Positions 45,229-64,000 of a stretch of 64,000 nt of DNA are shown in pieces. Both the position numbers and the translations under genes were made by a program. This stretch comes from Spizellomyces punctatus DAOM BR117 (Eukaryota). A model generated the notes under the pieces. It was not told the DNA's origin. It was given only the letters and a program-made list of their open reading frames with translations, and made no database searches. Positions within the stretch are counted from its first letter, which is position 1. Each line of letters opens with the position of its first letter. The DNA lies in assembly GCA_000182565.2 (NCBI GenBank), contig KQ257471.1. One strand, written 5' to 3'.

Positions 45229-47189
45229 CTAGTTGTCCTTCTTCAAATCATTGTCATGGTCCTTCACATCTTTCACCTCTTCATCTTCGCCAGTCACGAA
45301 AACATCCGCACTATCCCTCACGCTCTTCTCAACCTCAACTTTCCCAACTGTCCCAAGATGCTTATGGCCATGGTAATCTGCGCCGACGAGTTCACCAATC
45401 CGTCTGCATAATTTTCCACCTCCAAGGATGCCAAATGCAACCAACGCTGCCACGTTCCATATATGTACCATGAAATAAACGGACTTCCACACCTGGATTC
45501 CATTAGGGATAGTGTATACGGGAAACGGGGCGCAAATGTAGTTGATGGAGATTTGCGTACCAAGCCAGCCAACAAAGTCGTAGAGCGGCTTGTAGGTGGC
45601 CAAGCGAGAAGGTTGTGTAACCAGTGGGCGTAAATTACGGCGTAAAAGTTGTCCTGTAATCGTTACCATCGCTCCCGACAAGAAGGTAAAATAGTAGCCA
45701 GGTCGGAAACCGTGCCAAAAGGCGGAGGTGAAGTAAGTCCCTACATTCGCCAACGCTATAGCTTTCCCTTTCTCTTTCGGCTTTTGATGTTTTGAGCGCG
45801 CGTTGTCAGTAGATTTAGCGGGGGTATGTTGAGGTGCCAATCGAAGATACACGCACTCTCGAAGCCATTTTCCTGTTTGTTGATTCCATGCACCAATGTA
45901 CTCGCGGGGAGATTGCGCCAGTTCGAGACGGAGTGGATCGGCATTTTGAACGCGTGAAAACAGCATTTTGGTTGGGTTGCGAGGACAGGGTCCAAGATAA
46001 CCGATCCCAGAGATAATGCAAGCACCCTCCGCAAGCTTCCAAGCACCATAGTATTTGCAGCGAACAACGTTGCCTGCAAGATTAATGTACAACAATCTAA
46101 CAACGAAAAAGAGGTTCAATCCAGTTCCTCATGGGTAACAGCTGCAAACACATAAAGGGCGGGAGTACCTACCTAAACCAAAAGGGCTGTTTCATAAATT
46201 CTGGAGTGATTGCTCCATAATGTGATAACGGCTCGCTAAACTTCATGTAAATCCCTATGGTAAAAAGCCCTACCAACAATGTTTTAAACGCTGGAAGACC
46301 ACGTGGGGGAATTTTGTCAAACGGGGGCTGTAACCCAGATTTGCAAAAATAGAAAGCATTAGTGTTCCTCTGTACTTTGCTCGCAGCGATCAAGACGGTG
46401 GCCGACGGACCTCTCCTCGCGTGAATCTCCGATACTCAATGAAATCATTTGCCGGGCCCACAAACCATCCGCCAAAGAAGAAGGCGTATCCGAGGAACTC
46501 GATCAGATTTGGCATCGTTCTTATCGCGGTTCTCTGCTGCTCTCTGGACAGCAACTGAATATCTCGGCAAATGAACAAAAATGACATAAATATCGATCAC
46601 GAGCGACAACCATACCGTGTCCTTTTTTGTTCCGTCATGAGCCGCCCACGCAAATGTGCTCATTTTGATAACCATCATCATGATAGGGGCTGTGTTGTCA
46701 GCTACTCCAGAATCCGGGTTAAATATTTGGTTTTCTAGATGACTGGAAGGCAATGATGTCAACCAGATGCCACTGCGTTAACGATCTAACAGCTGTAACC
46801 TAACGCTGCAACACGCGGCCCTCCGTATGAAAGAGCAGGTCATGGGCACAGAGTTTGGGAAGAGGAACTTACTGGACACTCAAGAAGGCCATCATTCCTA
46901 AAAAGACTGAGACTGGGGCCCACACGCTCTCCCGGCTTATGGACACGACGGTGTATGCAACAAGACAAGCAGACAGAAGTTGAACATAGAGCCATGGGTC
47001 AACGAGAGTAAGGCAGAGCGTGATGGTGAGCAAAATGGAAAATAAATGCTTGGCAGTTGGGAGGGTCGAAGGGATGTAAGAGTATATGTAGGCGAGAGGG
47101 TAGGCCGAGAACAGAATCACCGCAATTGTGAAATTCTGTATCGGCATGGACAGACTATCTGCCCAACCCTGTACCACTTCAAAAGCCAT
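45229..47189 (-). CDS. ALE1: MBOAT lysophospholipid acyltransferase (Ale1-like)
   Basis: IKMSTFAWAAHDG, GWFVGPA, KYYGAWKLAEGAC, WNQQTGKWLRECVYLR, SAFWHGFRPGYY. Confidence 0.9.
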
Positions 47190-49010: not shown

Positions 49011-52000
49011 ATGAGGTTAAAGCATCAGATACGTGTCGAGACGAGTGCGGACATATGGCAAGCACTTCGGGATAAATGCGAAGGTGACCTTGTAAATGTC
49101 ATGGTGGGATGCCTGGTTACGCTTCTCTGGAAGTACACCAAGGTTCCCGTGCACATTTTGGAGGTGTGGAGGAAGGATGGCAGGTGTGTATTACTCTAAA
49201 TGACCGCCGCGCGCGTAAGGTCGATCGCTGATGAAATGTGGCTTAGATCGAGTCGGGTGAAGTTCCGTATCTCCCCAGACACAACCCTTGGCGAGATCCT
49301 TGAAATCAGCGCTACCTCTCTGCCTGCCACAGACTTTGAAAGTCTCGACTATGTCCACGCCAATGATAAACACAGCGAGAGTCCTGAATTTCTTGAGACC
49401 GCCTTGGCAGGCGGACTGAAAATACGATTCAATGTATCTGGTTCGCTCTCTACGTCAATTAGTTTCAACCAACTCCTCGGCCACCGCGAACCGCATACGA
49501 TTCATATCGCAGACCATTGGAATGCATTGTTGCGGTTTATTGCGAAAAACGACGGGTGGCGGGATACGCCAGTTAAACAGATTTCCATTGTACACGGCAA
49601 GGAGCTGGATCAAGTGATGTCCAAGTGGACTACCAATGTTCATGGAACAACCTTGAAGTCGTATGCAGATGGACCTAAGCTGCTACACTCACATTTTGAC
49701 GCCTCCGCGAAACGAAACCCGAGAGGCGTTGCCTTGAGATATATTGATCACGACAGAAGAGAAGAACTGACGTACCGAGACGCCGCGCATATTATCGCAC
49801 GAGGCGTACGGGCAATTTTGCGCCGTTTCCGCCAGTCGCAACCATTAAGCCAAGAGCATCTTGGCTCTGCGTCAATGGAGCGATACGTAGCTATTTTCTT
49901 TCCGCGTGTTGGTATGGAAGCCTACCTTGCCATGCTTTCTATCCTGAAATCTGGCGCCGCTTATGTTCCTATCGATCCTGCCTACCCACCGGACCGAGTG
50001 GCTTACATCGTTGAGGATGCCTGTGCATCATTACTGATCACCACTCGGGCCATGGAGCAAATGGTCGAAGAGTCAGGATTGCTTGGCACTGGCAAGTGCA
50101 CTGTCGTTTTCTGGGATGAATTGCTCCAGGAGGTTCCAGTGGAAGGTACCACTGAAGAGGTGGCGATATCTCCATCAGCTCCGTGCTATTCTATATATAC
50201 ATCTGGGTCTACTGGGAAGCCAAAAGGTGCAGCGTTCTCCTATTCGAGAATCCCATGCATTTCCTTACTAACAGACCTCGTAGGTGTAATTGTTGAGCAT
50301 TGCAACGCTTCCTTCCTCGTACACTCAGAGTCCGTTCTTTTTCCTCTGAATGCCCAAGATGTAGTCCTCCAGCCGTTTTCCATTGCTTTTGATGCCTCAA
50401 TCGAATGCATCTGGCTGGCCTTCCACAATGCCGCGACCCTGCATATCCCGTCGGAAGTCGATATGAAATCTGGACCCATGCTCGCTGACTACATTACAGA
50501 GCACAATATTTCGGTTCTTTCGACTGTGCCGACTTTATTGTCCATGATAGACGAGGACATGCCTACCTTAAAATTATTGATCTTGGGTGGTGAAGCATGT
50601 CCACCGGCGCTGGTAGAGATGTGGGCTTCAAGGACTAGACTGGTAAACACTTATGGACCTACGGAAGCAACCGTCATCTGTACATCATGTGATATGCAGC
50701 CTGGGGTGCCAGTAACGATAGGAAAGCCGATACCGAATTACGAGATCTATATTTTGGACGATGAGCTGCTACCTGTACCTATTGGAATTGCTGGAGAGAT
50801 CCATGTCGGTGGAGACGGGTGGGTACCGTTTTATATTTACAGCTGTGCAATACTGTGCAATACTAAATACCGATCAATCCTGGCATCGTCCATCAGGGTT
50901 ACTCGCGGGTACCGAAATCGTGATGACCTAAATACTGAAAAGTTTATTCCCAGCCCGTATGGTCCTGGAAAACTTTATAAAACTGGTGATCTGGGCCGTT
51001 GGACGCCAGAGGGCGATATTGCTTACTTGGGCCGTGCCGATGCCCAGGTGAAACTGAGAGGTGAGCATATCTTGCATCTGAAATTGGTCATTGCATTCTG
51101 AGTAACGACCTTCAATTGTAATAGGCCATAGAATTGAGCTCGGAGAAATTGAATCAGCCCTTGTCCGCTTTGGTCACCCAACCGTCCTTGCGTCCTGCGC
51201 TACCGTCCAGCAGATTGAAGGTGTTGATCACCTTATCGCCTATATTATCCTAGCTGATCTCGATGACGAGGATAACGCGAGCCGATGTGACTCGAACTCA
51301 GAGTCTGACACAGTGTATGCTGAGGATGTTGACATCCAGGGTATTCTCGGGCGAATGAGGGCTACCTTACCTGGATACATGGTGCCAACCTATGTGGAGG
51401 TAATGAACGGTGATTTTCCAACGCTTCCCAGCGGCAAGGTTGACCGGAAGAAACTTCCGGTGCCACCACGTAAGTGCTTGCAGTTTATTGATATGACGGT
51501 GTATCCTGCGAACTGAGTTCGTCTACTGGCAACCTTATAATGTAGCGCATGTAATAAAAGCCCGTTCTTCCATGTCATCGATTCGCTCCCAGAGGAAGAC
51601 ACTAACTAATCAAGGATCGTTTGACTCCATGAATACTCTCTCTGCGGAGTCCCTGTTGGTAGATATGTTTACCGAGGAAGGAACCACCCCGACCGAGCGT
51701 ATGTTGCGCGATGTGTGGTCTAATATCCTGATGATAGAGATCACCACCCCCGAGGTGGACTTTTTTGCGCTGGGTGGCCACAGCGTCCTTGCTGCCCGAC
51801 TAGTTTCCGAGTTGCGCAAGTCGCCGACAGTGAAAGGTGTTACTGTGCGTGATGTTTATACTGAACGCACGATTAGGGGTCTTGCTGCAAGAATCGATAC
51901 ATTAAATGGCAAAACTGAAATTGCGGTAAAAATGAAGAACTCCAATGGCCGCCAGTCGTCTCAGGATGGGTCTGAAGATGCCAGTGGTACAGATGGGACG

Positions 52001-54632
52001 GTGGTGGACATGCTTGGTTCACCCAGTGACAAAAAGGAGCTGCCCCATGTGTTCCTACCCCACATCGTTTCGTTGATCCTATTCTACGTAATGGTGAGTC
52101 CAAGTCTTGTAGTTTTTCTTCGAGCCCAGCGGTAACAACTTTGTGCTTCAACAGGGGCATATTACCAGCTTCATGTCGTTGATCGGGTATTACCTTTTTC
52201 TCGAGTTCATGAATCCGACGTATTTCTCGTCCCGCTATTATGTGTTCCTAGTGGGAATCGCTCTATTTCCTGTCATTCAATTTTTGATGTTCGCTGCTGC
52301 CATTGGGTTAAAATGGCTCGTTATTGGAAAGTTCCGACCGGGAAAGTACAGATTGTACTCGTTTTACTATTGGAGGTGTGCTACTAGTTATTTCGTGGCT
52401 TGCAGAAAACTGTGATATTAACGGATCACTTACCCTCACTTTTTCGGCTCAGATGGTGGATCGTTAGTCGTGTTACCGCAATGGTTCCGGCTGCTTTCAT
52501 GCGTGGTTCACCCCTGCTTCGTATCTATTTGCGTTTGCTTGGTGCTAAAATCGGGCGCAACGTTCACCTGCAGTCAGTTTTCGTATCTTCGTTCGATCTG
52601 ATCACCATCGGCGATAACACTTCAATCGGGTCTGATGCTCACCTATACGGATTTCATGTCATGAACGGTTATCTGCACATTGGACGGGTGACAATTGGTG
52701 AAGGATGCTACGTTGGTGCCCGCTCACATTTGGAACCAAACACGTCGATGGGCGATCGGGCGCAGCTTGGCGAATTATCATGTGTTGGAATGGGACGGCA
52801 TATTCCATCGGGCGAGAGTTGGACTGGGTCTCCTGCTGAGCCTGTGGACCCAGCTTCCATCCTTTGTGCAGATATGGTCATCCCCCTCCGAAAAAGACGC
52901 AGCTGCTTTGGTCGCATGTTTGAGGCCATCGGTGACTTCCTGCACGCCCTCTTTTTCGTTTTCGCATACTTCATCATGGCTATCATGATGTTTGGGGCAT
53001 CTGTACCGAATTTAATTCTTTTGCTATTCACCGGAAATGTGATAAGCTCATGGACTATGCGGATGGCAATCTATATACCAGTCATGGGGTGAGTGACAGT
53101 AACTACGTTTCCCGCTGTCCAGCTGTAGTAACGATGTTGAATATCCTCTTTAGTCCAATCTATTGCGTTTGCATTGCCTTTCAGCTGGTGATTCTTAAGT
53201 GGCTTATCGGTGGCCGTATTCAACCTGGAGTCTATAGCACACGATCCTTCGCTTACTTCCGTATATGGTTCGTTGACAAAATGGTCCAGACCTCGCTCAG
53301 CGCACTGGGTGGAATGTACGCGACTCTGTATCTTCCACCGTGGCTCTCAGCAATGGGTATGAAAGTGGGGAAGACTGTAGAAGTGTCTACTGCGGCGAAC
53401 TGGACTCCGGATCTCTGTACGTTGGGTGACAGGTCGTTCCTCGCCGACAACGTCTGCCTCGGCGCGCCTGTGTTTCATGGTGGAATGGTGAAAGTTAGCC
53501 ACACGGAGATTAGGGAGAGGTCTTTTGTTGGAAACAGCGGGCTCATGCCATCCGGTAGCACCATTGGCAAGAACTGCTTGATCGGCGTCAATTCAGTGCC
53601 TCCTGCCAGTCTCGCAGAATGCCAAAGCTCTCAAACGGTCTCCGAAAAGAACAAAGAACATGGTTTCGTTGTGAATGTGGAAGAAGTTATACCACCTGGT
53701 TCCCGTTACGATGTTCCCGACGGTACATCTTGGCTTGGCTCACCAGCAATGAACCTCCCCGCTCGCGCTTGTGCAGTGAAAAAATTCAAAGAATCGAAGA
53801 CCTTCCAGCCGTCTCGCAAGCGTTATTTGCAACGGTATTTGATCGAGTTCTTCAGGGTGACTGGTCCTGCCATGATTGAAGGAGGAACTTTGGTTGGCGC
53901 GTTCATACTGGCCATGTGGCTGGACCTGAGGTGGTGGCATCTTTGGCTCTACTGGCCGCTCTTGCATATCGGTCGTGGAATTTGCTTTTGTGCCTGTGTA
54001 TGGCTCGCCAAGTGGATATTGATCGGCCGCTATATTGCTCAGGAACAGCCCTTGTGGTCCGTTTATGTTTGGAAGGCCGAGGTAAGAAAGTCGCAAGGTG
54101 CCTGGCTTATGCTGTTTACCGTTATCTAATCTCTTGTTTACTTATCCAGCTTGTCAGCGGTTGGGAAGAATTCGGCTGCAATCCAGCTTTCGTCTCTGGT
54201 CTTCAGGGAACTCCGTGGATAAATCATTGGTTTCGCTCTCTAGGTGCCAAAATTGGTCGGCGCTGCTACATTAACACGGTAAGTGCACACCAGCAGTTAC
54301 TCGGTCAGCTGCGCTTTTCTCATTATCATCGATTACTTTTGCTCCTCCAGGTGTGGTTCTGCGAACCTGATTTGATTAGTATCGGCGATAACGTGTGCCT
54401 AAACACGGATGTTGTCCTGCAAACGCATCTGTTTGAGGACCGAATTATGAAGATGTCACATTTGCGTATCGAGGACCATGTGTCAATTGGCGGCGCTTCA
54501 GTGATTCTCTACGACTCAGTCATTGAAGAAGGGTGTCATGTTGATTCGCTTTCGTTGGCCATGAAAGGCGAAGTACTCAGTTCTTGGACGCATTGGCGAG
54601 GGACGCCAGCCCAACCTGTTTTCCAGGGATGA
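49011..54632 (+). CDS. Pls-type (epsilon-poly-L-lysine synthetase-like) NRPS: degenerate C-like domain, A, T, then three TM/left-handed beta-helix modules; ~10 introns
   Basis: A-domain motifs LKSGAAYVPID, YTSGSTGKPK|G, FDAS, NTYGPTE, GEIHVGG, YKTGDL, QVKLRG|HRIELGEIE, LPSGKVDR; T domain DFFALGGHS; three KW...LG(A/M)K(I/V)G repeats ending LQTHLFEDRIMK. Confidence 0.9.
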
Positions 54633-54942
54633 TGCGGATTTCTGCATAATGCGACGCTGTATTTGCTTTGTATTACTCTAATAGACACGCTTCACAAGAT
54701 CAATTACACTAAGTGGCTTATGTGAGAACTAAGTATTTAGAGTTCGAGATGCGAGTTGCAAAGCACGAGAATAACAACTTGAGATGCATCTATTCATACA
54801 TCGAACATTTAATTCACAAAATACTCAGAAATCGTAGATGCCATAGTGTACCGGATTCAAAAGTAGTCCTTCGCGGTTTTCGGCATGACTGCAGAGAGGA
54901 GGGAAGTTACCTAACAAGTATCCGGGTTCATTCTTGCACAGG

Positions 54943-55157
54943 TGCAAGGTAGACCTGTTCTTTGGTCTTCGCACGCAGTTGCGGACTTTGATTTTTGCGA
55001 CGCGTCTCGCGTGCCATATGACCATATATAGTTATAGTGATCATGTATCCATGTATAGCTAAAGTATGGCGCAGCGCGTAGCAGTTAGCTTAGGAAAACC
55101 CCGCCGCGCCGACAACCTGTCAAAGTCTGTCGGTTCCACGGCGGCCCCGTAGTTAGA
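54943..55157 (+). mobile_element. Partial LTR copy, inverted relative to the LTR at 55913-56450
   Basis: TGCAAGGTAGACCTG...CCCCGTAGTTAGA aligns with the reverse complement of 56239-56450 over ~215 bp. Confidence 0.8.
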
Positions 55158-55912
55158 TGTTTATTCTTTGCCTCATTGCATGGCACTGTCACAAGACGGA
55201 TTTCCCTCCCATTTGTTTGTTGGGGTACGGTTGTCTGTATCACTTGAGAATTATGGTACGGGGTCTTTTTTGTGCGGTTAACACCAATACTGTGTCACTA
55301 TGCACATATATGTTCAAGTGGGACTTCTATTGGCCAATTCTCACTTACAACAGCTGCTCTGTGATCTCTATGGCTAGAATTGATGTTTGATGGTTGAAAA
55401 TGGGTCTTTGTGATCAAAGGACTTTTTTTTATGGTTGAAAGCATACTTTCTATGGTTGCATTGTTCTAAAATGCACTTTTGATGGTCTGAAAATGAGTTG
55501 GTACAATCAGTTTGTGTTAAAAACATCATTTCAATGGTTTGTGAGTGTAAATATCTTGTTTTCTAATTATCGCTCAGTGTTTCAGTATCTCCAGCATGGA
55601 ATGGTTCTTCGTGACTGACTAGAGAAATTAAAACACAAGCAACACCAGTAAAGGTATGTAGAAAAACTAAAATATATATATATTTGCTACAAGAAAAGGG
55701 GAATCCAGTGCAAACATGCCTCTTATATACTGCTAAAACTATGTACTCTAGAAGAAAAATTGTAAAGTAGGGAGATGAACCATAGGTTTGAAATATAATG
55801 GATTAAGATTGCTCTATTAATTTCCCATCACTGGAATGCTTTATATACCATGCATTTACATAAGCTTTAAATACAATATCCATGTGTCGCACATATGGCA
55901 CTAGCACTTTCT

Positions 55913-56450
55913 TGTAACGTCAATCGACCAGATTGCTCTAGTTGATGTGTTTCTTGTGAATCATTGAGCCCTGTGAGAGGGCTGTATAAAGACTTTGTTG
56001 TTAATACAAGATAAAGGGAACTATTGATAGTTCCTCACATTGCTAACTAGGCTAGTTGTTCTTCTAGTTTTTCCTTGCTTGCTGCCTCCCCTTCTGAGGG
56101 GCTTTGGGGCAGCACTTTTTTATGCTTGCTCCCTCCTTCGGCGGGGCGTCGGCATGAGATTTCCTGCCCCCGCCGGTGCGGTCCCTCTTGCGCCAATCGG
56201 AAGTGATTGGCACTAGCAATTAAAGGGACAAATAATCTTCTAACTACGGGGCCGCTGCGGAACCGAACAACTTTGACAGGTCGTCGGCGTGGCGGGGCTT
56301 ACATAATCTAACTACTGTTATGCACTGCGCCATACTTTGGCCATACATGGCTACATGATCACTATAGCTATATATGGTGTATGAGAGACGCGTCATGAAA
56401 ATCTAAGTTCGCACTTGCGTGCAAATACCAAAGGACAGGTCTACCTTACA
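55913..56450 (-). repeat. Putative 3' LTR (~540 bp) of the Gypsy element
   Basis: On the minus strand it starts TGTAAG, ends GTTACA, is preceded by a GGGGGG polypurine tract (56451-56456) and contains a TATA-like CATAAAAAAG. Confidence 0.7.
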
Positions 56451-56730
56451 CCCCCCGCAGATTATACCTGCAGCAGTAGCGAAGGCTTTAATCTCTTCTT
56501 GACCTTTCTTTTGGTCTGGAAACAAGAGTTCTATCTACTTCTATGTAGTGAGGTCCTTGGGTTTTCCTCATCCCCTGGGTGTCTCCTCGGTTTGCCCAGA
56601 CCGGTTGAGCTCTGTGGCTCGGCCAGTGGGGCTGTCCCCGGGACTACTGGGCTTTCCCAGCATGACCCATGTGATTGCATCCAATGCAACACTTTACATA
56701 CGTATGATTTTCATCATGATGAGGTAATTG

Positions 56731-56922
56731 TTTGGGGGCTGACCCCTGGAGCAGCTTCACCCGGTGCCCACGGGGACCGTTTGCTGAGTCGTCGCTCCAT
56801 TTCTGGCCCTTTTTATACTTTATACAATTTGGGGGCTGACCCCTGGAGCAGCTTCACCCAGTGCCCACGGGGACCATTTGCTGAGTCATCACTCATTCTG
56901 GTCATGTATATACTTTATACAA
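56731..56922. repeat. ~97-bp tandem duplication in the Gypsy 3' non-coding region
   Basis: TTTGGGGGCTGACCCCTGGAGCAGCTTCACCC...TATACTTTATACAA occurs twice (56731 and 56828). Confidence 0.85.
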
Positions 56923-57561: not shown

Positions 57562-60500
57562 TTAATGCTCCATTCTCCAAATTTTGTAAGCGTCTGTCTG
57601 TCGAATGTGGTGGAGAGGTTCCCAAGTGTTCTCACTATGCGGGTATCCTTTCCATTTGATGAGGAATTGTGGTTTACCAAGTCATCAGCGTTGGTCAATA
57701 ATCTCCTCGACTTCATATTCGGGAATCCCTGCGATATGAACAGGAGGTGGCAGTACTACTATGTTCCTATAGTGGTGAGACGCTGGGTCTTCGTATTTCT
57801 TTAGGACACTAACATGGAAGATAGGATATAAGGCAGATAAGTGAGTATCCTGTAACTTGAGCTCATAGGTGTCCGGATAAGGTCCCATTGCTTTGATTGT
57901 GTAGGGGCCGATCCAGCTAGTGGCTAGCTTTGCTGGTTTCTGCAGACTAATGTCTACCTCAATCCCTTTGCAATTGAGTAGGACCTGGTCTCCTATGGCG
58001 AAGGTAATAGCTGTGTGTCCTTTGTCATAGTGTTCAGCATATTTATCCTGTAGTTCCTTCATGCGGTGTTGAACGATTACGGCTATTTTGTCCATCGCTT
58101 TTTTGATGTCCTTAATCTCATTTCGGTCGATAGGTTTCATCATTTGAAGTTCTGTGGAAGTAATGACTCCATCCGCTTGTGAGGGCATTCGCCCGATATC
58201 TGCCTCAAATGGTGTCAGTCCATGTTGGTTCGGGGTGTTGTTCAATGTGAACTTGAGGAGAGGAAGATACTGTGGCCAATTATCTGCCACATGGTTGAGG
58301 TACGGCCGATATATGGACTTTACTGTCCGTATCATCCGTTCGCATTTGCCGTCAGTTTGTTGGTGTCGGGCACTAGCAAATTGGTGTTTCGTACCAAGGA
58401 CTCTACAGAAGGCCTCAAAGAAATCGGAAAGGGCTTTCGGGTTGTGGTCAGTAATAAAGATCCTGGATGCTCCTACATTCTTGTAGACTTGGGACAAATA
58501 TGTCTGCGCAAGATCGTGAGCATTGGAAGCTTGGAGTGTTGGTACGAGGATGGTCCGGTTAGTCAAGTAATTGACGAAACAAAGAATGGCATCGGGTCAG
58601 AATCCATGGGTGCTATTGCCTGGAGGCATATAAGTCATATCAAACCCGATCATATGCCATCGACTATTAGGGATTGGTAATGGTCATAAAAACCCATGCT
58701 TCCGTAAAGGGTTCTTGTATTGTTGGCATTCAGGACAAGTCCGAATATATGCGTAGATGTCACGTTCGAGGTGAGGCCAGTAGAATCTTCGTAGAATTTT
58801 AGCTAATGTGCGTCATTGACCTTCATGCGAGCCATCTATTAGGCTGTCATGATATTGCTGTAAGATTCTAGTATGCTGCATTTCTGGTATGTATAGCCGG
58901 TCCTTCTCATAAGTTAGGAGGTCATTTTGTATTGCGTAGTGTCGTAGCCTTGATCCTAAGGCATGGGCTGGTGTTGTCTTCAACGTTTCGATTATTGTAA
59001 GGGCATAATTGTCTTGGCTCAGTGCCTGAGTCCATTCTTCGCGATTAAATGGCATTAGTGTCGTCTTGGTGTTGGCGACTAATATGGCTTGCAACTGGAT
59101 TCGTTGTTGACACTCTGCACATCGGGGTGCATAGTGTGGGTTCTGCGAAAGAATGTCCGCAACATGGTTAACTTGTCCGGGCATGTATTCGATCGTCATG
59201 TCGAATTGTTGTAATGTTTCAACCCATCCTGCTTGTCGTCAGGAAAGGTGCGGCTGCATTTGAAGGTAGATCAGACTTTTATGGTCAGTGAAGGCATGGA
59301 AGAAGATACCAATCAGATATGGGCGATTATGTTTCAAAAACTTGACTAGGGCTAAAAGTTCCTGTTCGTGAACTGGATACCACGTCTCGGTGGGTTTCAT
59401 CTTACAGGAGTAAAATGAGACTGGTCATAGACGGGGTAGCGCTTTAAGTTCCCAGATGGTTTTCGGCAGCGGAGATGGTATCTCATCTTCCAGGTCTGTG
59501 GTTTGGGCTAGCCATCCGCTGATCGCGAATCCTGATGAATCAGTGAAGATGAAAGTGTCTTTGGTCAGGTCGAAGGTCACCAGGATGGGTGCAGTGGTAA
59601 TAGCATTTTTGATCTTTTCGAATGCTGTTTTTTCTTCTTCTTTCCATTGCCATGTTTTCTTTCCAGATTGTAGTTGCAAGAGGGGCATCACGATTTCTGC
59701 ATATCAGTTGACAAAGTCAATGAAGTAATTAGTTAATCCTAAGAATCGTTGGACATCATGATGATTTCACAACTCTGGCCAGTCTTGGACAGCTAGAATC
59801 TTGCTGGGAGCGATCCATATTCCGTTTCATCCAATAATATGTCCGCAGAACTCGACCTCAGGTTGTCCCCACATGCACTTGGCTGGGTTCACATAGAGTT
59901 TGTGTTCAGTCAAGACTCGAAGCACAATATCTACATGCTTCTGATGTTCCTCCATTGTCCTGGAGAATACCAGGATGTCGTCGAGGTAGGCGAGGACTAG
60001 GTCGTCATAATGCGGGCCGAGGATCTTGTTGATGAGGTGCTGAAATGCAGCTGGAGTGTTAGTTAATCCGAAAGGCATTACCAGATACTCAAAGTGTCCG
60101 AATTGTGTACGAATGGTGGTCTTTTCCACATCGCGTGGGTTTATTCTAATGCAATGGTAAGCATCTTTGATGTCGATACTCATGAAGAACTTTGCACCAG
60201 CTACACAATCTCGCATCTCTTGTAGATTTGGTAGCAGGGTCCGGTCCTTTTTGGTTACGGCGTTTAGTCCTCGATAGTCTAGACATACTCGTAATCCCCC
60301 ATCCTTCTTCTTGGCGAACACTATCTGGGCTCCCCAGGGGCTAGTGGAGTGTCATATTCATCCTTTTGCTAGGAGGTCATCGAGCTGTCAACGAAGCTCT
60401 TCTAACTCATTGGTACTCATATGCTGTAAGGGGTATGCGAGTGGTTTAGCTCCAGGAAGGAGTTCAATGCTAAAATTGTCTTCCCCTCTGTCTGGGGGGA

Positions 60501-61386
60501 ACTTGCCATTCTCGGTAAAAAGCATGTTGTTGTATTTATCGAGTGTAACCTTAAGGAAGCCTGTGCATCCATTATTGGCTGTGTCGAACTCTCCTTTTCT
60601 TTTCTTGCCTTTTGTGTAGAGCCTTGCTACATGGAAACTCATGTAGCGATCATCGGCTTCCTCTGGTTGGATCCTCCATGCTGTCAGGTATCTGTTACAT
60701 TTGATATCTTTGTCGAATTGCTTGGAGGAGCATTCATCCCATGTCGTCTTGGGTTGAATAAACTGTGAGGGAGGTTTGCCGAATCCTCTCAGATGGGCGG
60801 CATGATATGAGGCGGTGGCTTCCCATGCTCTGCTGGTCCATTGCGCTTCGATGTTATGGCTCACATTGTTAAAGTTAAACCAAAGAGTTGGTCGTTGTGC
60901 TGTCCAATCAATGGAGACCTGCTTAAGGAGTTTTAATAGAGGTAACCCTATCACTGCATCAATGCCAATATTTGCTACAACAAAAGGGATCTTTCCGAGG
61001 TTTATGAATCCTTGAGGTTGCGAATTGGACAAGACTAGTGAAGAGGTTATCATCAAGTTTGATAGGCTCTGAGATCCTTCTTCGCCCCATTTTATCCGAA
61101 TGGGTTGCTCTGGAGCATACTGTTCGAAATGATGTCAGTTTGCAAACTTCTTGTTGATGAGGTAGCTTGTACATCCAGTGTCAAATAATATTCTAGCAAA
61201 CTTGTCGCTGACACGTCCATGGATAATGAAGGGCTCCTCAATCTCAGGATTTTTGATCTTGGTGTCGTCGCAACATAACGGTTCTTCCTTCTGGTCCTGA
61301 TCTGGTAGTCGTGGTACAATGACCTCGTGCATGTGTACTATGGCTGCTGAAGGGATCAGGGCAGTCAGCGGCTTTGCTAAAAATCC
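57562..61386 (-). pseudogene. Gypsy pol (protease, RT, RNase H, integrase, chromodomain) with many in-frame TGA stops
   Basis: LFDTG; KKKDGGLRVCLDYRGLN; YLVMPFGLTN; YLDDILVFS; FTDSSG; QTDGKCERMIR; WIGPY; EYEVEEII..FLIKWKGYPHSENTWEP. Confidence 0.93.
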
Positions 61387-61860
61387 TCCGTTTGTTCATC
61401 CTCAAAGATTTCTTCAATCAAGGATGGTTCCCCTTGTTTTGCCCAGGTGGGCTCGTCGGCCTCCATGGTTTGGTACTCAATTGGAGGGTGTTCAGTTGTC
61501 ATTGATTGAACCTGGGATTGCGACATTCTGACTCCACGTCCCCTTCCTGGTCCTGTACCTCTGGTAGAGGGTTGTCCGGGTCCACGAGGAGTTCCTCGAC
61601 CTTGTGGCAACTGCGTGGGGTATGGGGCAGCTTGTACTGGAGCGGATGGACATTGACAAGCATAATGCCCTCTTCCTCCGCAGTTATTGCAAACAATGCC
61701 AGAGCTTGTTCTCATTACTGGCTGAGTGGCACCTTGGGTTACCGTGGATGTCATGTGACCGCGAAAGGATCCTCATCCACGAGTGGACGGGTGACTTGGC
61801 GTTGTTGAGGATGGTGCGGGCACACCGATTCGATCGATGAGTCCCCGATCATTATATGCC
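61377..61860 (-). pseudogene. Gypsy gag C-terminal fragment with CCHC zinc knuckle
   Basis: CNNCGGRGHYACQC; RG-rich linker. Confidence 0.8.
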
Positions 61861-62283
61861 ATGTGAAGGCTCTGCTGCAGGGGGACCAATACATCTTCTT
61901 CATCATTCATTAGTGACAGCATTACTACAAAGTGAGGCACTTGGGGACAATTTCATCAAAAATATTCCCAGGGAAAAAGTGCCACAGGATAAAACCAATG
62001 GTAAAAATTGGAAGCTTATGGAAAGTAAAAAATTATGTAGAGACATGTAGGGATGAGAAATGTCCCCATTTTCCTAGCAAGATTGCAAAAAGAATAGAAA
62101 TATCCACATGTTTAAATGGCAACATTGGTTTCCTTGTTTACACAAAAATCCACAGAAGATGTAGGCAACTCAGGCGTCAGAACTCATCCCATCTCAACAT
62201 TACCTTTGAGGCATACCAGCCGGGATTGGCCACTCCGCGCCCGGCATGCCTGCCGGCATCCTCATGTCCGTTCTTCAAATGGA

Positions 62284-63384
62284 CTACATCTGCGCCGGCA
62301 TCTTCTGCCGCAGAATTTCTATGTGCAAAAATGTACCCTTCGGACGAACTTTTAACTTTTTCTGTTGCAATCTTGTTTTAGTAGGTCGTGTTTGTACAGG
62401 CTCCAACTGATGAATTTCTTTGTGAACTTCTTTTTGTGTTCTGGTCAATTTTACTGGTAGATGACCTGGTTTCTCGGTAATCGGTGCATTGGTTTTCTGT
62501 AATTCATAGTATTTGAAACGCTGGTCTATTTCTTTACCATTGGCGTATGCTACTACGAATCGATAGCCATCGACATTGACTATATGGTATACTTCATCAG
62601 ACCATTTTGCCTCGTATCCTTTTTTGAAAATATCCTGTTTGAGTAATATTCTTACATGGTCGCCAATGTCAAACTTCTTGAAATCACTTACAGCCTTGCT
62701 ATTATCGCGTAGATAATCACCATTAGCAACATCGACAGGTGCCTTTTTCAATAGACTGTGATATGAAGTATTGTAGTTCATAACAAGGTCAGGAAGAGCA
62801 TCTATGTAGCGCTTAGTTTTAAATACGGTCATGTATCTGGAGATAACACTTTTCAGTGTGCGATTAAACCTTTCGACCAGACCCATATGGTTATGGTCTG
62901 CAACTTCAGCCATGTAATGGTTTATACCATACTTATTGAGCAATTGCTCAAAAACAATGTTGTTGTACTCTGAACCCCTATCAGTCGTGATATTTTTAGG
63001 ACGCCGCCTAGCGAGTAACTTTGTAAAACAATCAGCAATCTTTTCTCTGGTTTTATTCTTGAGAGGAAAAACAAAGGCATAACGAGAGTACACGTCTACA
63101 ATACATAACAGATAACGGTAACCATTGTTGTAGGTAGCATATTTCTGCATGTTGCACAAATCCGATTGCCATATGTGATCAACACCATTGGCTGTTATAT
63201 GCATGTAGTTAGGCTTGACAAGAGGTTTGTGTACTTGTTGCACATGCTGACTGTCGATGAATGTCTTTATATCCTTTCTGGAAATACCCTGATCCTTGAG
63301 TCTCTGGTAGAGCTTTTCTATGCTCTGAAGTCCAGTCTTGGGATCATAGTAAACTTTCTTGATTAGTTCGGTTTTTGTCCCCAT
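62284..63384 (-). CDS. Polinton/Maverick rve-type (DDE) integrase
   Basis: YYDPK..EKLY, WQSDL, GYRYLLCIVDVYSRYA, TDRGSEY, VERFNRTLK, RYIDALPDLVMNYNTSYH, FDIGDHVRI..FKKGY..KWS, YYELQK. Confidence 0.92.
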   Translation of the reverse strand: MGTKTELIKKVYYDPKTGLQSIEKLYQRLKDQGISRKDIKTFIDSQHVQQVHKPLVKPNYMHITANGVDHIWQSDLCNMQKYATYNNGYRYLLCIVDVYSRYAFVFPLKNKTREKIADCFTKLLARRRPKNITTDRGSEYNNIVFEQLLNKYGINHYMAEVADHNHMGLVERFNRTLKSVISRYMTVFKTKRYIDALPDLVMNYNTSYHSLLKKAPVDVANGDYLRDNSKAVSDFKKFDIGDHVRILLKQDIFKKGYEAKWSDEVYHIVNVDGYRFVVAYANGKEIDQRFKYYELQKTNAPITEKPGHLPVKLTRTQKEVHKEIHQLEPVQTRPTKTRLQQKKLKVRPKGTFLHIEILRQKMPAQM

Positions 63385-63385
63385 T

Positions 63386-64000
63386 TTAAAAACCGAAAGG
63401 AAGTGTCTCTATGACCTTAGACTCAGAGTTAAATTCTTGAACCACACGTTTGTTGTAGACAAACTTGTACTTTTTGCAGGGTGAGTTATTTTTTTCTGGT
63501 ATGATGATCTTTGTCTTGTTACGCACACTGTGTGTTTTACTAATGTTGATTTCGCTAAAGTTAAAATTAACACAACTCTCTTTCTCAATACCTTCATCAT
63601 CAATGTACCTAGGGTTAAATACTATATCCTTCATAGACTCATGTCCAAGATTGAGTCCATTTTCATATGAAAGTGCGAAGCCTTTACAGACCGTCTTTGC
63701 TCTCCCTGTTTTGTTGAGAATGTAAGAGTAATTCTTAGCGCCACCTGAAACAAATTCTACAATATGGTCGCCTTTCAATTCATCTGTCAGGTCTCCAAGA
63801 TAATTACCATAGGGCAAAGTCTTTTCAGTTGATCCTATATCATCATCAACATATATAATAGAATCAGTATCATAGTACAACACCTTTTCCCCTACAGTAT
63901 CCAGAACACTGTAAAGTTTACAACGAGCCAAAGCGGTAGTGTATGCAGCAATGAAAATACTAGTATTCTTGTCATCACGAACAGCAGCCTTATGCAAGGA
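63386..64000 (-). CDS. Polinton-type protein-primed family B DNA polymerase, C-terminal part (truncated by window edge)
   Basis: IAAYTTALARCKLY, LYYDTDSIIY, GNYLGDLTDEL, EFVSGGAKNYSY, CKGF, KRVV..TLPFGF*. Confidence 0.93.
   Translation of the reverse strand, partial: SLHKAAVRDDKNTSIFIAAYTTALARCKLYSVLDTVGEKVLYYDTDSIIYVDDDIGSTEKTLPYGNYLGDLTDELKGDHIVEFVSGGAKNYSYILNKTGRAKTVCKGFALSYENGLNLGHESMKDIVFNPRYIDDEGIEKESCVNFNFSEINISKTHSVRNKTKIIIPEKNNSPCKKYKFVYNKRVVQEFNSESKVIETLPFGF

What the first reader, a model, noticed from the sequence alone, without database searches (positions are those of the whole stretch)
49011..54632. Intron-containing epsilon-poly-lysine-synthetase-like NRPS in an early-diverging fungus
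Seen: a single A-T module followed by three membrane/left-handed beta-helix repeats ending in QTHLFEDR, with no TE or R release domain. About 10 spliceosomal introns show a long-resident eukaryotic gene rather than contamination. Established: this is the Streptomyces Pls architecture (TIGR02353-type C-terminus) that makes isopeptide homopolymers of diamino acids; a fungal example is known from Epichloe. Reading the specificity positions by eye against GrsA gives D-A-E-S-I-G-T-V-I-K, one residue from the Pls Lys code as I recall it (DAESIGTVVK). Inference: this organism may make a cationic antimicrobial or surface polymer (poly-Lys/Orn/Dab), a chemistry I do not know to be described in chytrids. 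No degrading peptidase or tailoring genes flank it.
Basis: partly seen in the sequence, partly recalled or inferred. Interest (0 to 1): 0.85.

Follow-up and report, generated by a model that had tools for sequence, protein, structure and literature searches.

The report
Chytrid polylysine-synthetase-like membrane enzyme gene
A soil chytrid fungus carries an intact, intron-rich gene for a bacterial-type membrane enzyme that most likely strings lysine into a cationic antimicrobial-style polymer; the enzyme family is already known in other fungi, so this is a new member rather than a new kind.

Summary
Window 49011-54632 (+) is one gene of 11 exons and 10 GT-AG introns (57-78 bp). Its spliced translation equals, letter for letter, a 1646-aa protein that a source names for Spizellomyces punctatus DAOM BR117.

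The architecture is adenylation domain, carrier domain, then three "membrane hairpin plus left-handed beta-helix" units. It passes NCBI's curated cut-off for the Pls/PosA family (TIGR02353, 573 bits against 423.1). No thioesterase or reductase domain is present.

The same alignment columns give PosA's published code in six homologues, and 42 of 97 aligned proteins (P0001 among them) have this exact code. It carries every residue reported to hold lysine in Pls.

Eukaryotic housekeeping genes flank the gene, and its base composition matches theirs, so it is not contamination.

Its place in the tree is inside a bacterial and metagenomic radiation, but unstable. Transfer from bacteria is likely; the donor and date are open.

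No RNA, product or structure test could be run. The family is already reported in fungi and other eukaryotes, so this is a new member of a known kind, of modest interest.

The parts
49011..54632 (+). Whole gene: 11 exons, 10 introns, 1646 codons plus the TGA stop
   Evidence: The spliced CDS of 4941 nt translates exactly to P0001. P0001 is named by a source as an amino acid adenylation domain-containing protein of Spizellomyces punctatus DAOM BR117.
49184..49246 (+). Intron 1 (63 bp, GT-AG, phase 2)
   Evidence: It is needed to join exon 1 to exon 2 in frame. The join reproduces P0001 residues 57-59.
50227..50283 (+). Intron 2 (57 bp), inside the SGSTGKPKG motif of the adenylation domain
   Evidence: A TACTAAC branch-point-like site is visible in the sequence.
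50819..50896 (+). Intron 3 (78 bp)
51061..51124 (+). Intron 4 (64 bp)
51470..51545 (+). Intron 5 (76 bp)
   Evidence: A longer alternative acceptor at 51614 would also keep the frame. The database model uses 51545.
52094..52154 (+). Intron 6 (61 bp)
52376..52452 (+). Intron 7 (77 bp)
53089..53153 (+). Intron 8 (65 bp)
54082..54149 (+). Intron 9 (68 bp)
54279..54350 (+). Intron 10 (72 bp)
49011..49694 (+). N-terminal extension, residues 1-207 (includes intron 1): probable remnant of the C-terminal half of a condensation domain plus the C-A linker, without the catalytic His motif
   Evidence: For: all 30 named ESM-Atlas feature hits are Condensation-domain clusters, top score 0.95. It is collinear with the N-extension of Basidiobolus P0111 and weakly similar to those of metagenomic homologues. 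3 of 13 members of alignment A1 (P0001's exon-2 part, which had no such hit, plus 12 N-extended homologues) hit PF00668 at E <= 1, best 1.9e-4, below the cut-off. Against: no Pfam hit for P0001 itself, and 0 PDB hits by phmmer with this part alone.
49695..51553 (+). Adenylation domain, residues 208-735. Code residues: D421 A422 E425 S464 I484 G486 T507 V515 I516 K722
   Evidence: Pfam AMP-binding 208-568 at 232.9 bits; TIGR01733 at 367.4 bits against 317.4. Code. D421 is at window 50391-50393 and K722 at 51436-51438.
51704..51895 (+). Carrier (thiolation) domain, residues 786-849, with Ser812 in GGHS
   Evidence: Pfam PP-binding at 34 bits against 20.8. The serine is invariant in 97 of 97 sequences. 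S812 is at window 51782-51784.
52049..52298 (+). First hydrophobic hairpin (TM1-TM2), residues about 901-963
   Evidence: Kyte-Doolittle 19-residue windows with peaks of 1.83 and 2.42.
52299..52936 (+). First left-handed beta-helix unit (C1), residues about 964-1150
   Evidence: Pfam Hexapep at 1068-1099. TIGR02353 profile positions 80-258.
52937..53220 (+). Second hydrophobic hairpin (TM3-TM4), residues about 1151-1223
53221..53865 (+). Second beta-helix unit (C2), residues about 1224-1438, with a lineage-specific insert at 1358-1387
   Evidence: TIGR02353 profile positions 278-437. BLASTP against C1 gives E = 3e-8. Insert.
53866..54036 (+). Third hydrophobic hairpin (TM5-TM6), residues about 1439-1495
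54037..54629 (+). Third beta-helix unit (C3), residues 1496-1646
   Evidence: TIGR02353 profile positions 609-695.
54420..54443 (+). QTHLFEDR motif (residues 1577-1584), the likely single active site of the membrane domain
   Evidence: Q, H, L, F, E and R are identical in 97 of 97 sequences, and T and D in 96 of 97. The equivalent positions in C1 and C2 vary.

Best explanation
The gene encodes an intact, membrane-bound, single-module NRPS-like synthetase of the Pls/PosA family (synthetases of cationic homo-poly-amino acids).

Most likely mechanism:
1. The adenylation domain activates L-lysine with ATP.
2. It loads the lysine as a thioester on the phosphopantetheine arm at Ser812 of the carrier domain.
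3. The C-terminal domain has six membrane helices in three hairpins. They carry three beta-helix units that pack as a pseudo-trimer with one active site at the invariant QTHLFEDR of unit 3.
4. [quoted passage not shown]
5. An epsilon-linked polylysine-type polymer therefore grows without ever being bound to the enzyme, which is why no release domain is needed.

Shown here: the domains, the motifs and the lysine-type pocket. Taken from work on Streptomyces Pls: the loading and polymerising chemistry. Inferred: the monomer, the linkage, and that the chytrid makes the polymer at all.

The gene is of bacterial type. It most likely entered a fungal lineage by horizontal transfer long enough ago to gain 10 introns and the host's base composition.
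For: Family membership. TIGR02353 scores 573 bits against a cut-off of 423.1, and TIGR01733 scores 367.4 against 317.4. Pfam finds the A and T domains and hexapeptide repeats, and no TE or R domain.

Membrane domain. Six hydrophobic segments fall in three pairs. Units 1 and 2 are internal repeats, E = 3e-8. QTHLFEDR is invariant and occurs only in unit 3.

Pocket.
- The code is DAESIGTVIK. The columns used give DMEHNGTVSK in 6 homologues, which is the code published for PosA (PMC10522769 passages).
- 42 of 97 aligned proteins (P0001 included) have the identical code, and 60 of 97 start with D-A-E-S.
- Pls holds lysine with D213, E217, S256, T301 and K495 (PMC11253843 passage). By spacing these are code positions 1, 3, 4, 7 and 10, and P0001 has the same residue at each.
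- Lys-activating members have Ala at position 2, where PosA has Met and the Dap enzyme has Phe (PMC10522769 passages).

Integrity.
- P0001 keeps 206 of 225 columns that are >= 90% conserved in the other 96 sequences.
- It keeps 68 of 70 near-invariant columns of the membrane domain.

Mechanism of Pls: PMC9205021 passages.

A true fungal gene.
- It has 10 GT-AG introns.
- Its GC3 is 0.525 against 0.474-0.539 in four neighbouring genes.
- The neighbours are GCIP, TatD, Snf7 and an LPLAT-type MBOAT, with a Ty3-like element downstream.

Bacterial affinity.
- The best full-length identity in the alignment is 41%, to a Planctomycetaceae protein; BLASTP gives 38% over 1453 columns.
- P0001 sits inside a 27-row clade of lysine-code sequences with SH-aLRT 98.
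Against: - No product, assay or structure was available.
- P0001 is the third least conserved of the 97 sequences.
- It has Cys where all 96 others have Glu, next to code position 3 (E426C). It has Ser where all 96 have Gln (Q908S).
- Its terminal branch is 1.37 against a median of 0.55.
- Its A domain is no closer to the solved Pls A domain (7wew, 240 bits) than to ordinary NRPS A domains such as 1amu at 254.8 bits. Orthology to Pls proper is therefore not shown.
- No homologue with the same code that I aligned is known to me as characterised.
- After the protein itself, the best of the 120 listed hits was 42% identical over the 309-aa query. No close relative turned up in the metagenome scan either. 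I cannot show that selection has kept the gene within chytrids.
Confidence: 0.6

Rival explanations
1. The family and mechanism are the same, but the monomer or linkage differs: for example ornithine, diaminobutyrate, beta-lysine or D-lysine, or a mixed or short oligomer.
For: Family members with small changes in the code make different polymers (PMC10522769 passages). P0001 has the unique E426C change beside the pocket and sits on a long branch. No protein with exactly this code that I aligned is known to me as characterised.
Against: Position 2 is Ala, the lysine class; Met goes with ornithine, Phe with Dap/Dab and Gly with beta-lysine (PMC10522769 passages). All five reported lysine-contact residues of Pls are the same in P0001 (PMC11253843 passage).
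Confidence: 0.15
2. The gene looks intact but is silent or in early decay. It would be a leftover of an old transfer with no product in the living chytrid.
For: After P0001 itself, the best of the 120 listed hits was 42% identical, and the metagenome scan found no close relative. Conservation is the third lowest of 97, with changes at two otherwise invariant columns. No expression data could be obtained.
Against: The frame is open across 1646 codons and 10 introns, all with GT-AG ends. P0001 keeps 206 of 225 conserved columns, all A-domain core motifs, Ser812 and the whole QTHLFEDR motif. A neutral sequence as diverged as this one would not keep them.
Confidence: 0.12
3. The enzyme has taken on a new role. 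It would transfer lysine, or a short lysine chain, to another acceptor at the membrane, such as a lipid or a wall polysaccharide, instead of releasing a free polymer.
For: The branch is long and there are lineage-specific inserts at residues 246-266, 664-682, 743-774 and 1358-1387. An extra N-terminal condensation-domain remnant has no known role. The acceptor site of the membrane domain is not understood even in Pls (PMC9205021 and PMC10522769 passages).
Against: Every characterised member named in the papers I read makes a free homopolymer (PMC10522769 passages). The near-invariant columns of the membrane domain are kept, 68 of 70. The N-terminal remnant also occurs in intronless metagenomic homologues.
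Confidence: 0.1
4. The stretch is bacterial contamination or a misassembly, not a chytrid gene.
For: All close homologues are bacterial or metagenomic.
Against: Ten spliceosomal-type introns are needed to read the gene. Eukaryotic genes (Snf7, GCIP, TatD, LPLAT-type MBOAT) and a retroelement lie on the same 64 kb. GC and GC3 match the neighbours.
Confidence: 0.01

Closest known systems
[quoted passage not shown]
   Same: It shares the A-T start, the six membrane helices in three pairs around three tandem units, and the lack of a C or TE domain. The lysine-contact residues (Asp, Glu, Ser, Thr, Lys) and Ala at code position 2 are the same (PMC11253843, PMC10522769 and PMC9205021 passages).
   Different: P0001 has about 208 extra N-terminal residues: Asp of the code is D421 against D213 in Pls. 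It also has several inserts and 10 introns. Its A domain scores only 240 bits to 7wew, no better than to unrelated NRPS A domains. I had no full-length Pls sequence, so orthology was not tested.
Epls of Epichloe festucae, the fungal epsilon-polylysine synthetase shown by overexpression
   Same: It is a fungal member of the same family with the same domain plan (PMC7179176, section 6 read).
   Different: Epls is 51% identical to S. albulus Pls, and its homologues are reported mainly in Clavicipitaceae (PMC7179176). P0001's best relatives are about 40% identical and bacterial. I had no Epls sequence, so there was no direct comparison.
PosA, the delta-poly-L-ornithine synthetase of Acinetobacter baumannii
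   Same: It belongs to the same NCBIfam family, with the same architecture and Asp and Glu at code positions 1 and 3 (PMC10522769 passages).
   Different: The PosA code is DMEHNGTVSK and P0001's is DAESIGTVIK. Met at position 2 restricts PosA to ornithine; P0001 has Ala.
Basidiobolus meristosporus K493DRAFT_300898 (P0111)
   Same: It is the only other protein with a eukaryote's name among the 120 listed hits, of which only part carry any name. It is 34% identical over 1704 aligned columns and shares the N-terminal extension from residue 30. Its code is DAESIGSVVK. It is sister to P0001 in one tree, SH-aLRT 96.
   Different: The sister grouping has support of only 0.29 in FastTree. Each sequence moves to a different place when the other is removed. 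Gene model 300898 is listed as an NRPS-like transfer candidate whose best hit is in firmicutes (PMC7466969, table passage). Matching that number to the locus tag is my reading.
Planctomycetaceae bacterium Pls/PosA-family protein (P0057) and other DAESIGTVIK homologues from bacteria and metagenomes
   Same: It has the identical 10-residue code. Identity is 38% by BLASTP over 1453 columns and 41% over the trimmed alignment.
   Different: It has no introns, and P0057 has no N-terminal extension. None is known to me as characterised.

Membership tests
Pls/PosA-family NRPS-like synthetases (cationic homo-poly-amino-acid synthetases; NCBIfam TIGR02353) | The C-terminal domain matches TIGR02353 above the curated cut-off. 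| tested here: met
   573 bits against 423.1, covering profile positions 5-695 in two stretches.
Pls/PosA-family NRPS-like synthetases (cationic homo-poly-amino-acid synthetases; NCBIfam TIGR02353) | There is a single N-terminal module of an adenylation domain and a carrier domain with the phosphopantetheine serine. | tested here: met
   TIGR01733 scores 367.4 against 317.4. PP-binding scores 34 against 20.8. Ser812 lies in GGHS, a column invariant in 97 of 97 sequences.
Pls/PosA-family NRPS-like synthetases (cationic homo-poly-amino-acid synthetases; NCBIfam TIGR02353) | Six transmembrane helices in three pairs separate three tandem soluble units. | tested here: met
   A hydropathy scan gives three pairs at about 901-963, 1151-1223 and 1439-1495. 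This is a crude method; no dedicated topology predictor was run. C1 against C2 gives E = 3e-8.
Pls/PosA-family NRPS-like synthetases (cationic homo-poly-amino-acid synthetases; NCBIfam TIGR02353) | There is no functional condensation, thioesterase or reductase domain. | tested here: met
   Pfam finds none at E <= 0.1. The N-terminal remnant lacks the part that would carry the catalytic His motif, and no upstream exon has a Condensation hit (0 of 18 ORFs).
Pls/PosA-family NRPS-like synthetases (cationic homo-poly-amino-acid synthetases; NCBIfam TIGR02353) | The pocket has Asp at code position 1 and Glu at position 3, to hold a diamino acid. | tested here: met
   D421 and E425. The rule comes from PMC10522769 passages.
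Pls/PosA-family NRPS-like synthetases (cationic homo-poly-amino-acid synthetases; NCBIfam TIGR02353) | The product is an isopeptide-linked homopolymer. | not testable with these tools
   This needs expression and mass spectrometry.
Epsilon-poly-L-lysine synthetase proper (Pls / Epls) | The pocket is of the lysine type: Ala at position 2, plus the Ser and Thr that bind the epsilon-amine. | tested here: met
   A422, S464 and T507, set against PMC10522769 and PMC11253843 passages. I mapped the Pls residue numbers to code positions by spacing.
Epsilon-poly-L-lysine synthetase proper (Pls / Epls) | It groups with characterised Pls or Epls in a tree. | not tested
   No full-length characterised sequence was at hand. 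The only stand-in, the 7wew A domain, scores 240 bits, no better than generic A domains.
Epsilon-poly-L-lysine synthetase proper (Pls / Epls) | It makes epsilon-linked poly-L-lysine. | not testable with these tools
   This needs LC-MS or MALDI and NMR.

The most novel reading that the evidence does not exclude
The chytrid and Basidiobolus genes descend from one very old bacterial-to-fungal transfer near the base of the fungal tree. Both carry the same vestigial condensation-domain stub. The gene has since been lost in most fungi and colonised by introns. In the chytrid, the enzyme makes a polylysine-type polycation with a role of its own in zoosporic life, such as defence of the sporangium or adhesion of the cyst. 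That would be the first polymer of this chemistry, and one of the very few secondary-metabolite-like products, in zoosporic fungi.
Probability: 0.15. Interest if true: 0.6.

Novelty: new member of a known kind. Interest (0 to 1): 0.35.

Why it matters
Chytrids are regarded as poor in secondary metabolism (PMC7466969, introduction passage). I found no paper that links a polylysine-type synthetase to any chytrid:
- one search returned 7 papers, and I read passages of two;
- one search returned 3 papers, and I read passages of one;
- one search returned 15 papers, 14 of them listed;
- one search returned 0 papers.

S. punctatus can be transformed (PMC7213984 and PMC10267658, search listing and abstracts only). 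The prediction can therefore be tested in the organism itself.

The gene is also a clean example of a bacterial-type gene that has gained ten introns.

The invariant QTHLFEDR in only the third unit adds to the case that the little-understood polymerising domain has a single active site.

None of this changes what is known about the family.

Tried and rejected
- RNA evidence. Splicing rests on the sequence and on agreement with the database protein.
- Own genome. None is held, so paralogues and a phosphopantetheinyl transferase could not be sought.
- Structure of the N-terminal part. The prediction tool accepted no jobs, so there was no fold and no fold search.
- Residue-level alignment to the solved Pls A domain. 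I queried PDB with a Streptomyces homologue, P0101. It is not a close Pls relative (7wew 245 bits, rank 34), and only the top alignment, LgrA, was printed. I validated the code columns through PosA's published code instead.
- Literature search for a recalled 10-letter lysine code found 0 papers.
- phmmer of residues 1-208 alone against PDB gave 0 hits at E <= 1.
- Upstream exons for the missing half of a condensation domain: 0 of 18 ORFs between 46.4 and 49.0 kb had such a hit.
- Close relatives in metagenome contigs: 26 pattern matches, 0 confirmed.
- A single fungal clade. It is supported in one quick IQ-TREE. It is not supported in FastTree, and it did not hold up when either sequence was left out. 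I left it open.
- The MBOAT neighbour as a DltB-like partner is rejected. Its best solved relatives are lysophospholipid acyltransferases.
- Earlier notes of this scan: none for this genome.

Full report
**What is there**

The + strand between 49011 and 54632 holds long open frames that break and resume in other frames. On their own, the pieces match AMP-binding, PP-binding and hexapeptide repeats in Pfam. In NCBIfam they match the amino-acid adenylation domain and, in four pieces, TIGR02353, the Pls/PosA family terminal domain.

I read the junctions in the sequence and placed ten GT...AG introns of 57-78 bp. My first assembly started one base late and garbled exon 1. With the start at 49011 and intron 1 at 49184-49246, the spliced CDS of 4941 nt translates without a stop. 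It is identical to P0001, a 1646-aa protein found by searching with exon 9. A source names P0001 as an adenylation-domain protein of Spizellomyces punctatus DAOM BR117. That species is a chytrid of the order Spizellomycetales.

**Architecture**

On the whole protein, TIGR02353 scores 573 bits (cut-off 423.1) and TIGR01733 scores 367.4 (cut-off 317.4). Pfam places AMP-binding at 208-568 and PP-binding at 786-849, with hexapeptide repeats further on. It finds no thioesterase, reductase or condensation domain at E <= 0.1.

A hydropathy scan gives six hydrophobic segments in three pairs, at about 901-963, 1151-1223 and 1439-1495. The first and second units between them are recognisable repeats of each other: BLASTP E = 3e-8, 24% identity over 161 columns.

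I aligned the 97 of the 120 listed homologues that have at least 1250 residues; the 23 shorter ones were dropped. In that alignment QTHLFEDR (residues 1577-1584) is identical in 97 of 97 sequences at Q, H, L, F, E and R. The matching positions of units 1 and 2 vary freely. This fits a single active site in unit 3.

Earlier notes of this scan on split archaeal relatives gave me the lead that only one of the three modules keeps a catalytic histidine. I tested it here only as conservation.

**Substrate pocket**

I took the ten specificity positions from their places relative to the core motifs; the numbering scheme is recalled. I then read the same alignment columns in all 97 sequences.
- P0001 reads DAESIGTVIK.
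- Six homologues read DMEHNGTVSK, which is the code published for PosA (PMC10522769, passages). This validates the columns.
- 42 of 97 sequences, P0001 included, read DAESIGTVIK.
- 13 read DAESIGTVVK.
- 60 start with D-A-E-S.
- The rest are D-M-E, D-F-E or D-V-E types.

In the Pls A-domain structure, lysine is held by D213, E217, S256, T301 and K495 (PMC11253843, passage). By spacing these are positions 1, 3, 4, 7 and 10, and P0001 has the same residues there.

Position 2 is reported to set chain length. Ala goes with lysine, Met with ornithine, Phe with diaminopropionate or diaminobutyrate, and Gly occurs in a beta-lysine enzyme (PMC10522769, passages). P0001 has Ala. Lysine is therefore the best-supported monomer.

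I could not read the complete code of S. albulus Pls from any tool or paper.

**Is the gene in working order?**

- Of 225 columns at least 90% conserved among the other 96 sequences, P0001 keeps 206. By region that is A domain 96 of 103, carrier 14 of 15, and membrane domain 95 of 106.
- This is the third lowest value of the 97; the range is 0.907-0.996.
- Of 70 membrane-domain columns identical in at least 94 of 97 sequences, it keeps 68.
- Two changes stand out. Cys426 replaces a Glu found in all 96 others, next to code position 3. Ser908 replaces a Gln found in all 96 others.
- Inserts specific to P0001 lie at 246-266, 664-682, 743-774 and 1358-1387.

The protein is diverged but keeps what the family keeps. 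That argues against free decay but does not prove activity.

The protein does not begin with the adenylation domain. Residues 1-207 have no Pfam family, and with phmmer alone they find nothing in PDB.

They are collinear with the N-terminus of the Basidiobolus homologue P0111 from residue 30. They are weakly similar to about 200-residue N-extensions of several intronless metagenomic homologues, with E from 3e-4 to 0.03 in a small database.

Alignment A1 holds P0001's exon-2 part and 12 N-extended homologues. Three of its 13 members touch the end of the Pfam Condensation model at E <= 1. The best is 1.9e-4 at profile positions 363-449 of 456, below the cut-off, and P0001's own part had no such hit. 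All 30 named-cluster feature hits in the ESM Atlas for residues 1-207 are Condensation-domain clusters, with a top score of 0.95.

The consensus of the extensions shows motifs that I recall from the C-terminal lobe of condensation domains and the C-A linker. No upstream ORF carries the missing half.

I read this as a vestigial half condensation domain inherited with the gene. Its function is unknown, and a fold prediction could not be run.

**Context**

Upstream lie GCIP, TatD, Snf7 and an MBOAT gene. The best solved relatives of the MBOAT are lysophospholipid acyltransferases. Downstream lie an inverted repeat and a broken Ty3-like retroelement.

The CDS has GC 0.499 and GC3 0.525. Four neighbours have GC3 of 0.474-0.539, and the introns have GC 0.441. 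This is a resident fungal gene, not contamination. Among the 25 ORFs scanned, no peptidase or tailoring gene appeared.

**Origin**

After P0001 itself, the best of the 120 listed hits was 42% identical over the 309-residue query. Only one other listed protein carries a eukaryote's name, the Basidiobolus protein; only part of the rows carry any name. The closest full-length relative is a Planctomycetaceae protein, at 38% by BLASTP and 41% on the trimmed alignment.

With a site-heterogeneous model, P0001 sits inside a 27-row clade of lysine-code sequences (SH-aLRT 98), as sister to Basidiobolus (96). Both are on long branches, 1.37 and 1.34 against a median of 0.55. FastTree gives that pair 0.29. 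When either is removed, the other moves to a different, poorly resolved place.

A bacterial origin by transfer is therefore likely. One transfer or two, the donor and the date all stay open.

The Basidiobolus gene model 300898 is listed as an NRPS-like transfer candidate with a firmicute best hit (PMC7466969, passage). A scan of metagenome contigs for close relatives found none.

**How it compares with what is known**

Pls of Streptomyces is the type of the family, and its mechanism is described in PMC9205021 (passages). Epls of Epichloe shows that fungi can make epsilon-polylysine with such an enzyme (PMC7179176, section 6).

A 2023 survey reported homologues in several fungal genera, Amoebozoa, Metazoa and alveolates. 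antiSMASH has a class for such clusters (PMC10989895, passages).

My four literature searches found no paper that links this chemistry to a chytrid.

**Verdict**

The gene is a new member of a known family in a new host group. Its product is plausible but untested, and its N-terminal stub is unexplained.

Noticed in passing
window 57685-63408, - strand: A broken Ty3/gypsy-like retroelement. Pfam finds SH3_Tf2-1 (57685-58596), RVT_1 (59827-60351) and rve (62284-63408) in separate frames.
   Followed up: partly
window 54941-55165 and 56231-56452: Inverted repeat arms, 75-89% complementary, start about 310 bp after the stop codon. There are also two 67-nt direct copies 97 bp apart at 56731-56894. 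This may be a small transposon or two repeat copies.
   Followed up: no
window 45229-46128 (- strand), likely further exons up to 47210: An MBOAT gene lies divergent from the synthetase gene. Its best solved relatives are lysophospholipid acyltransferases MBOAT7, MBOAT5 and LPCAT3. It is a housekeeping type, not a DltB-like partner.
   Followed up: yes
proteins P0011, P0068, P0076, P0112 (homologues, not in the window): Some bacterial or metagenomic family members carry a 4'-phosphopantetheinyl transferase domain (PF01648) in the same protein. It lies at the C-terminal end in the two whose positions I saw, P0068 and P0112. They would be self-priming synthetases.
   Followed up: no
window 50406-50408 (Cys426) and 52070-52072 (Ser908): Two residues differ from all 96 other aligned family members: Glu to Cys beside code position 3, and Gln to Ser at the start of the membrane domain. 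The window coordinates follow from the exon map.
   Followed up: no
window 1-64000: No tRNA gene and no Rfam family reach threshold anywhere in the window.
   Followed up: yes
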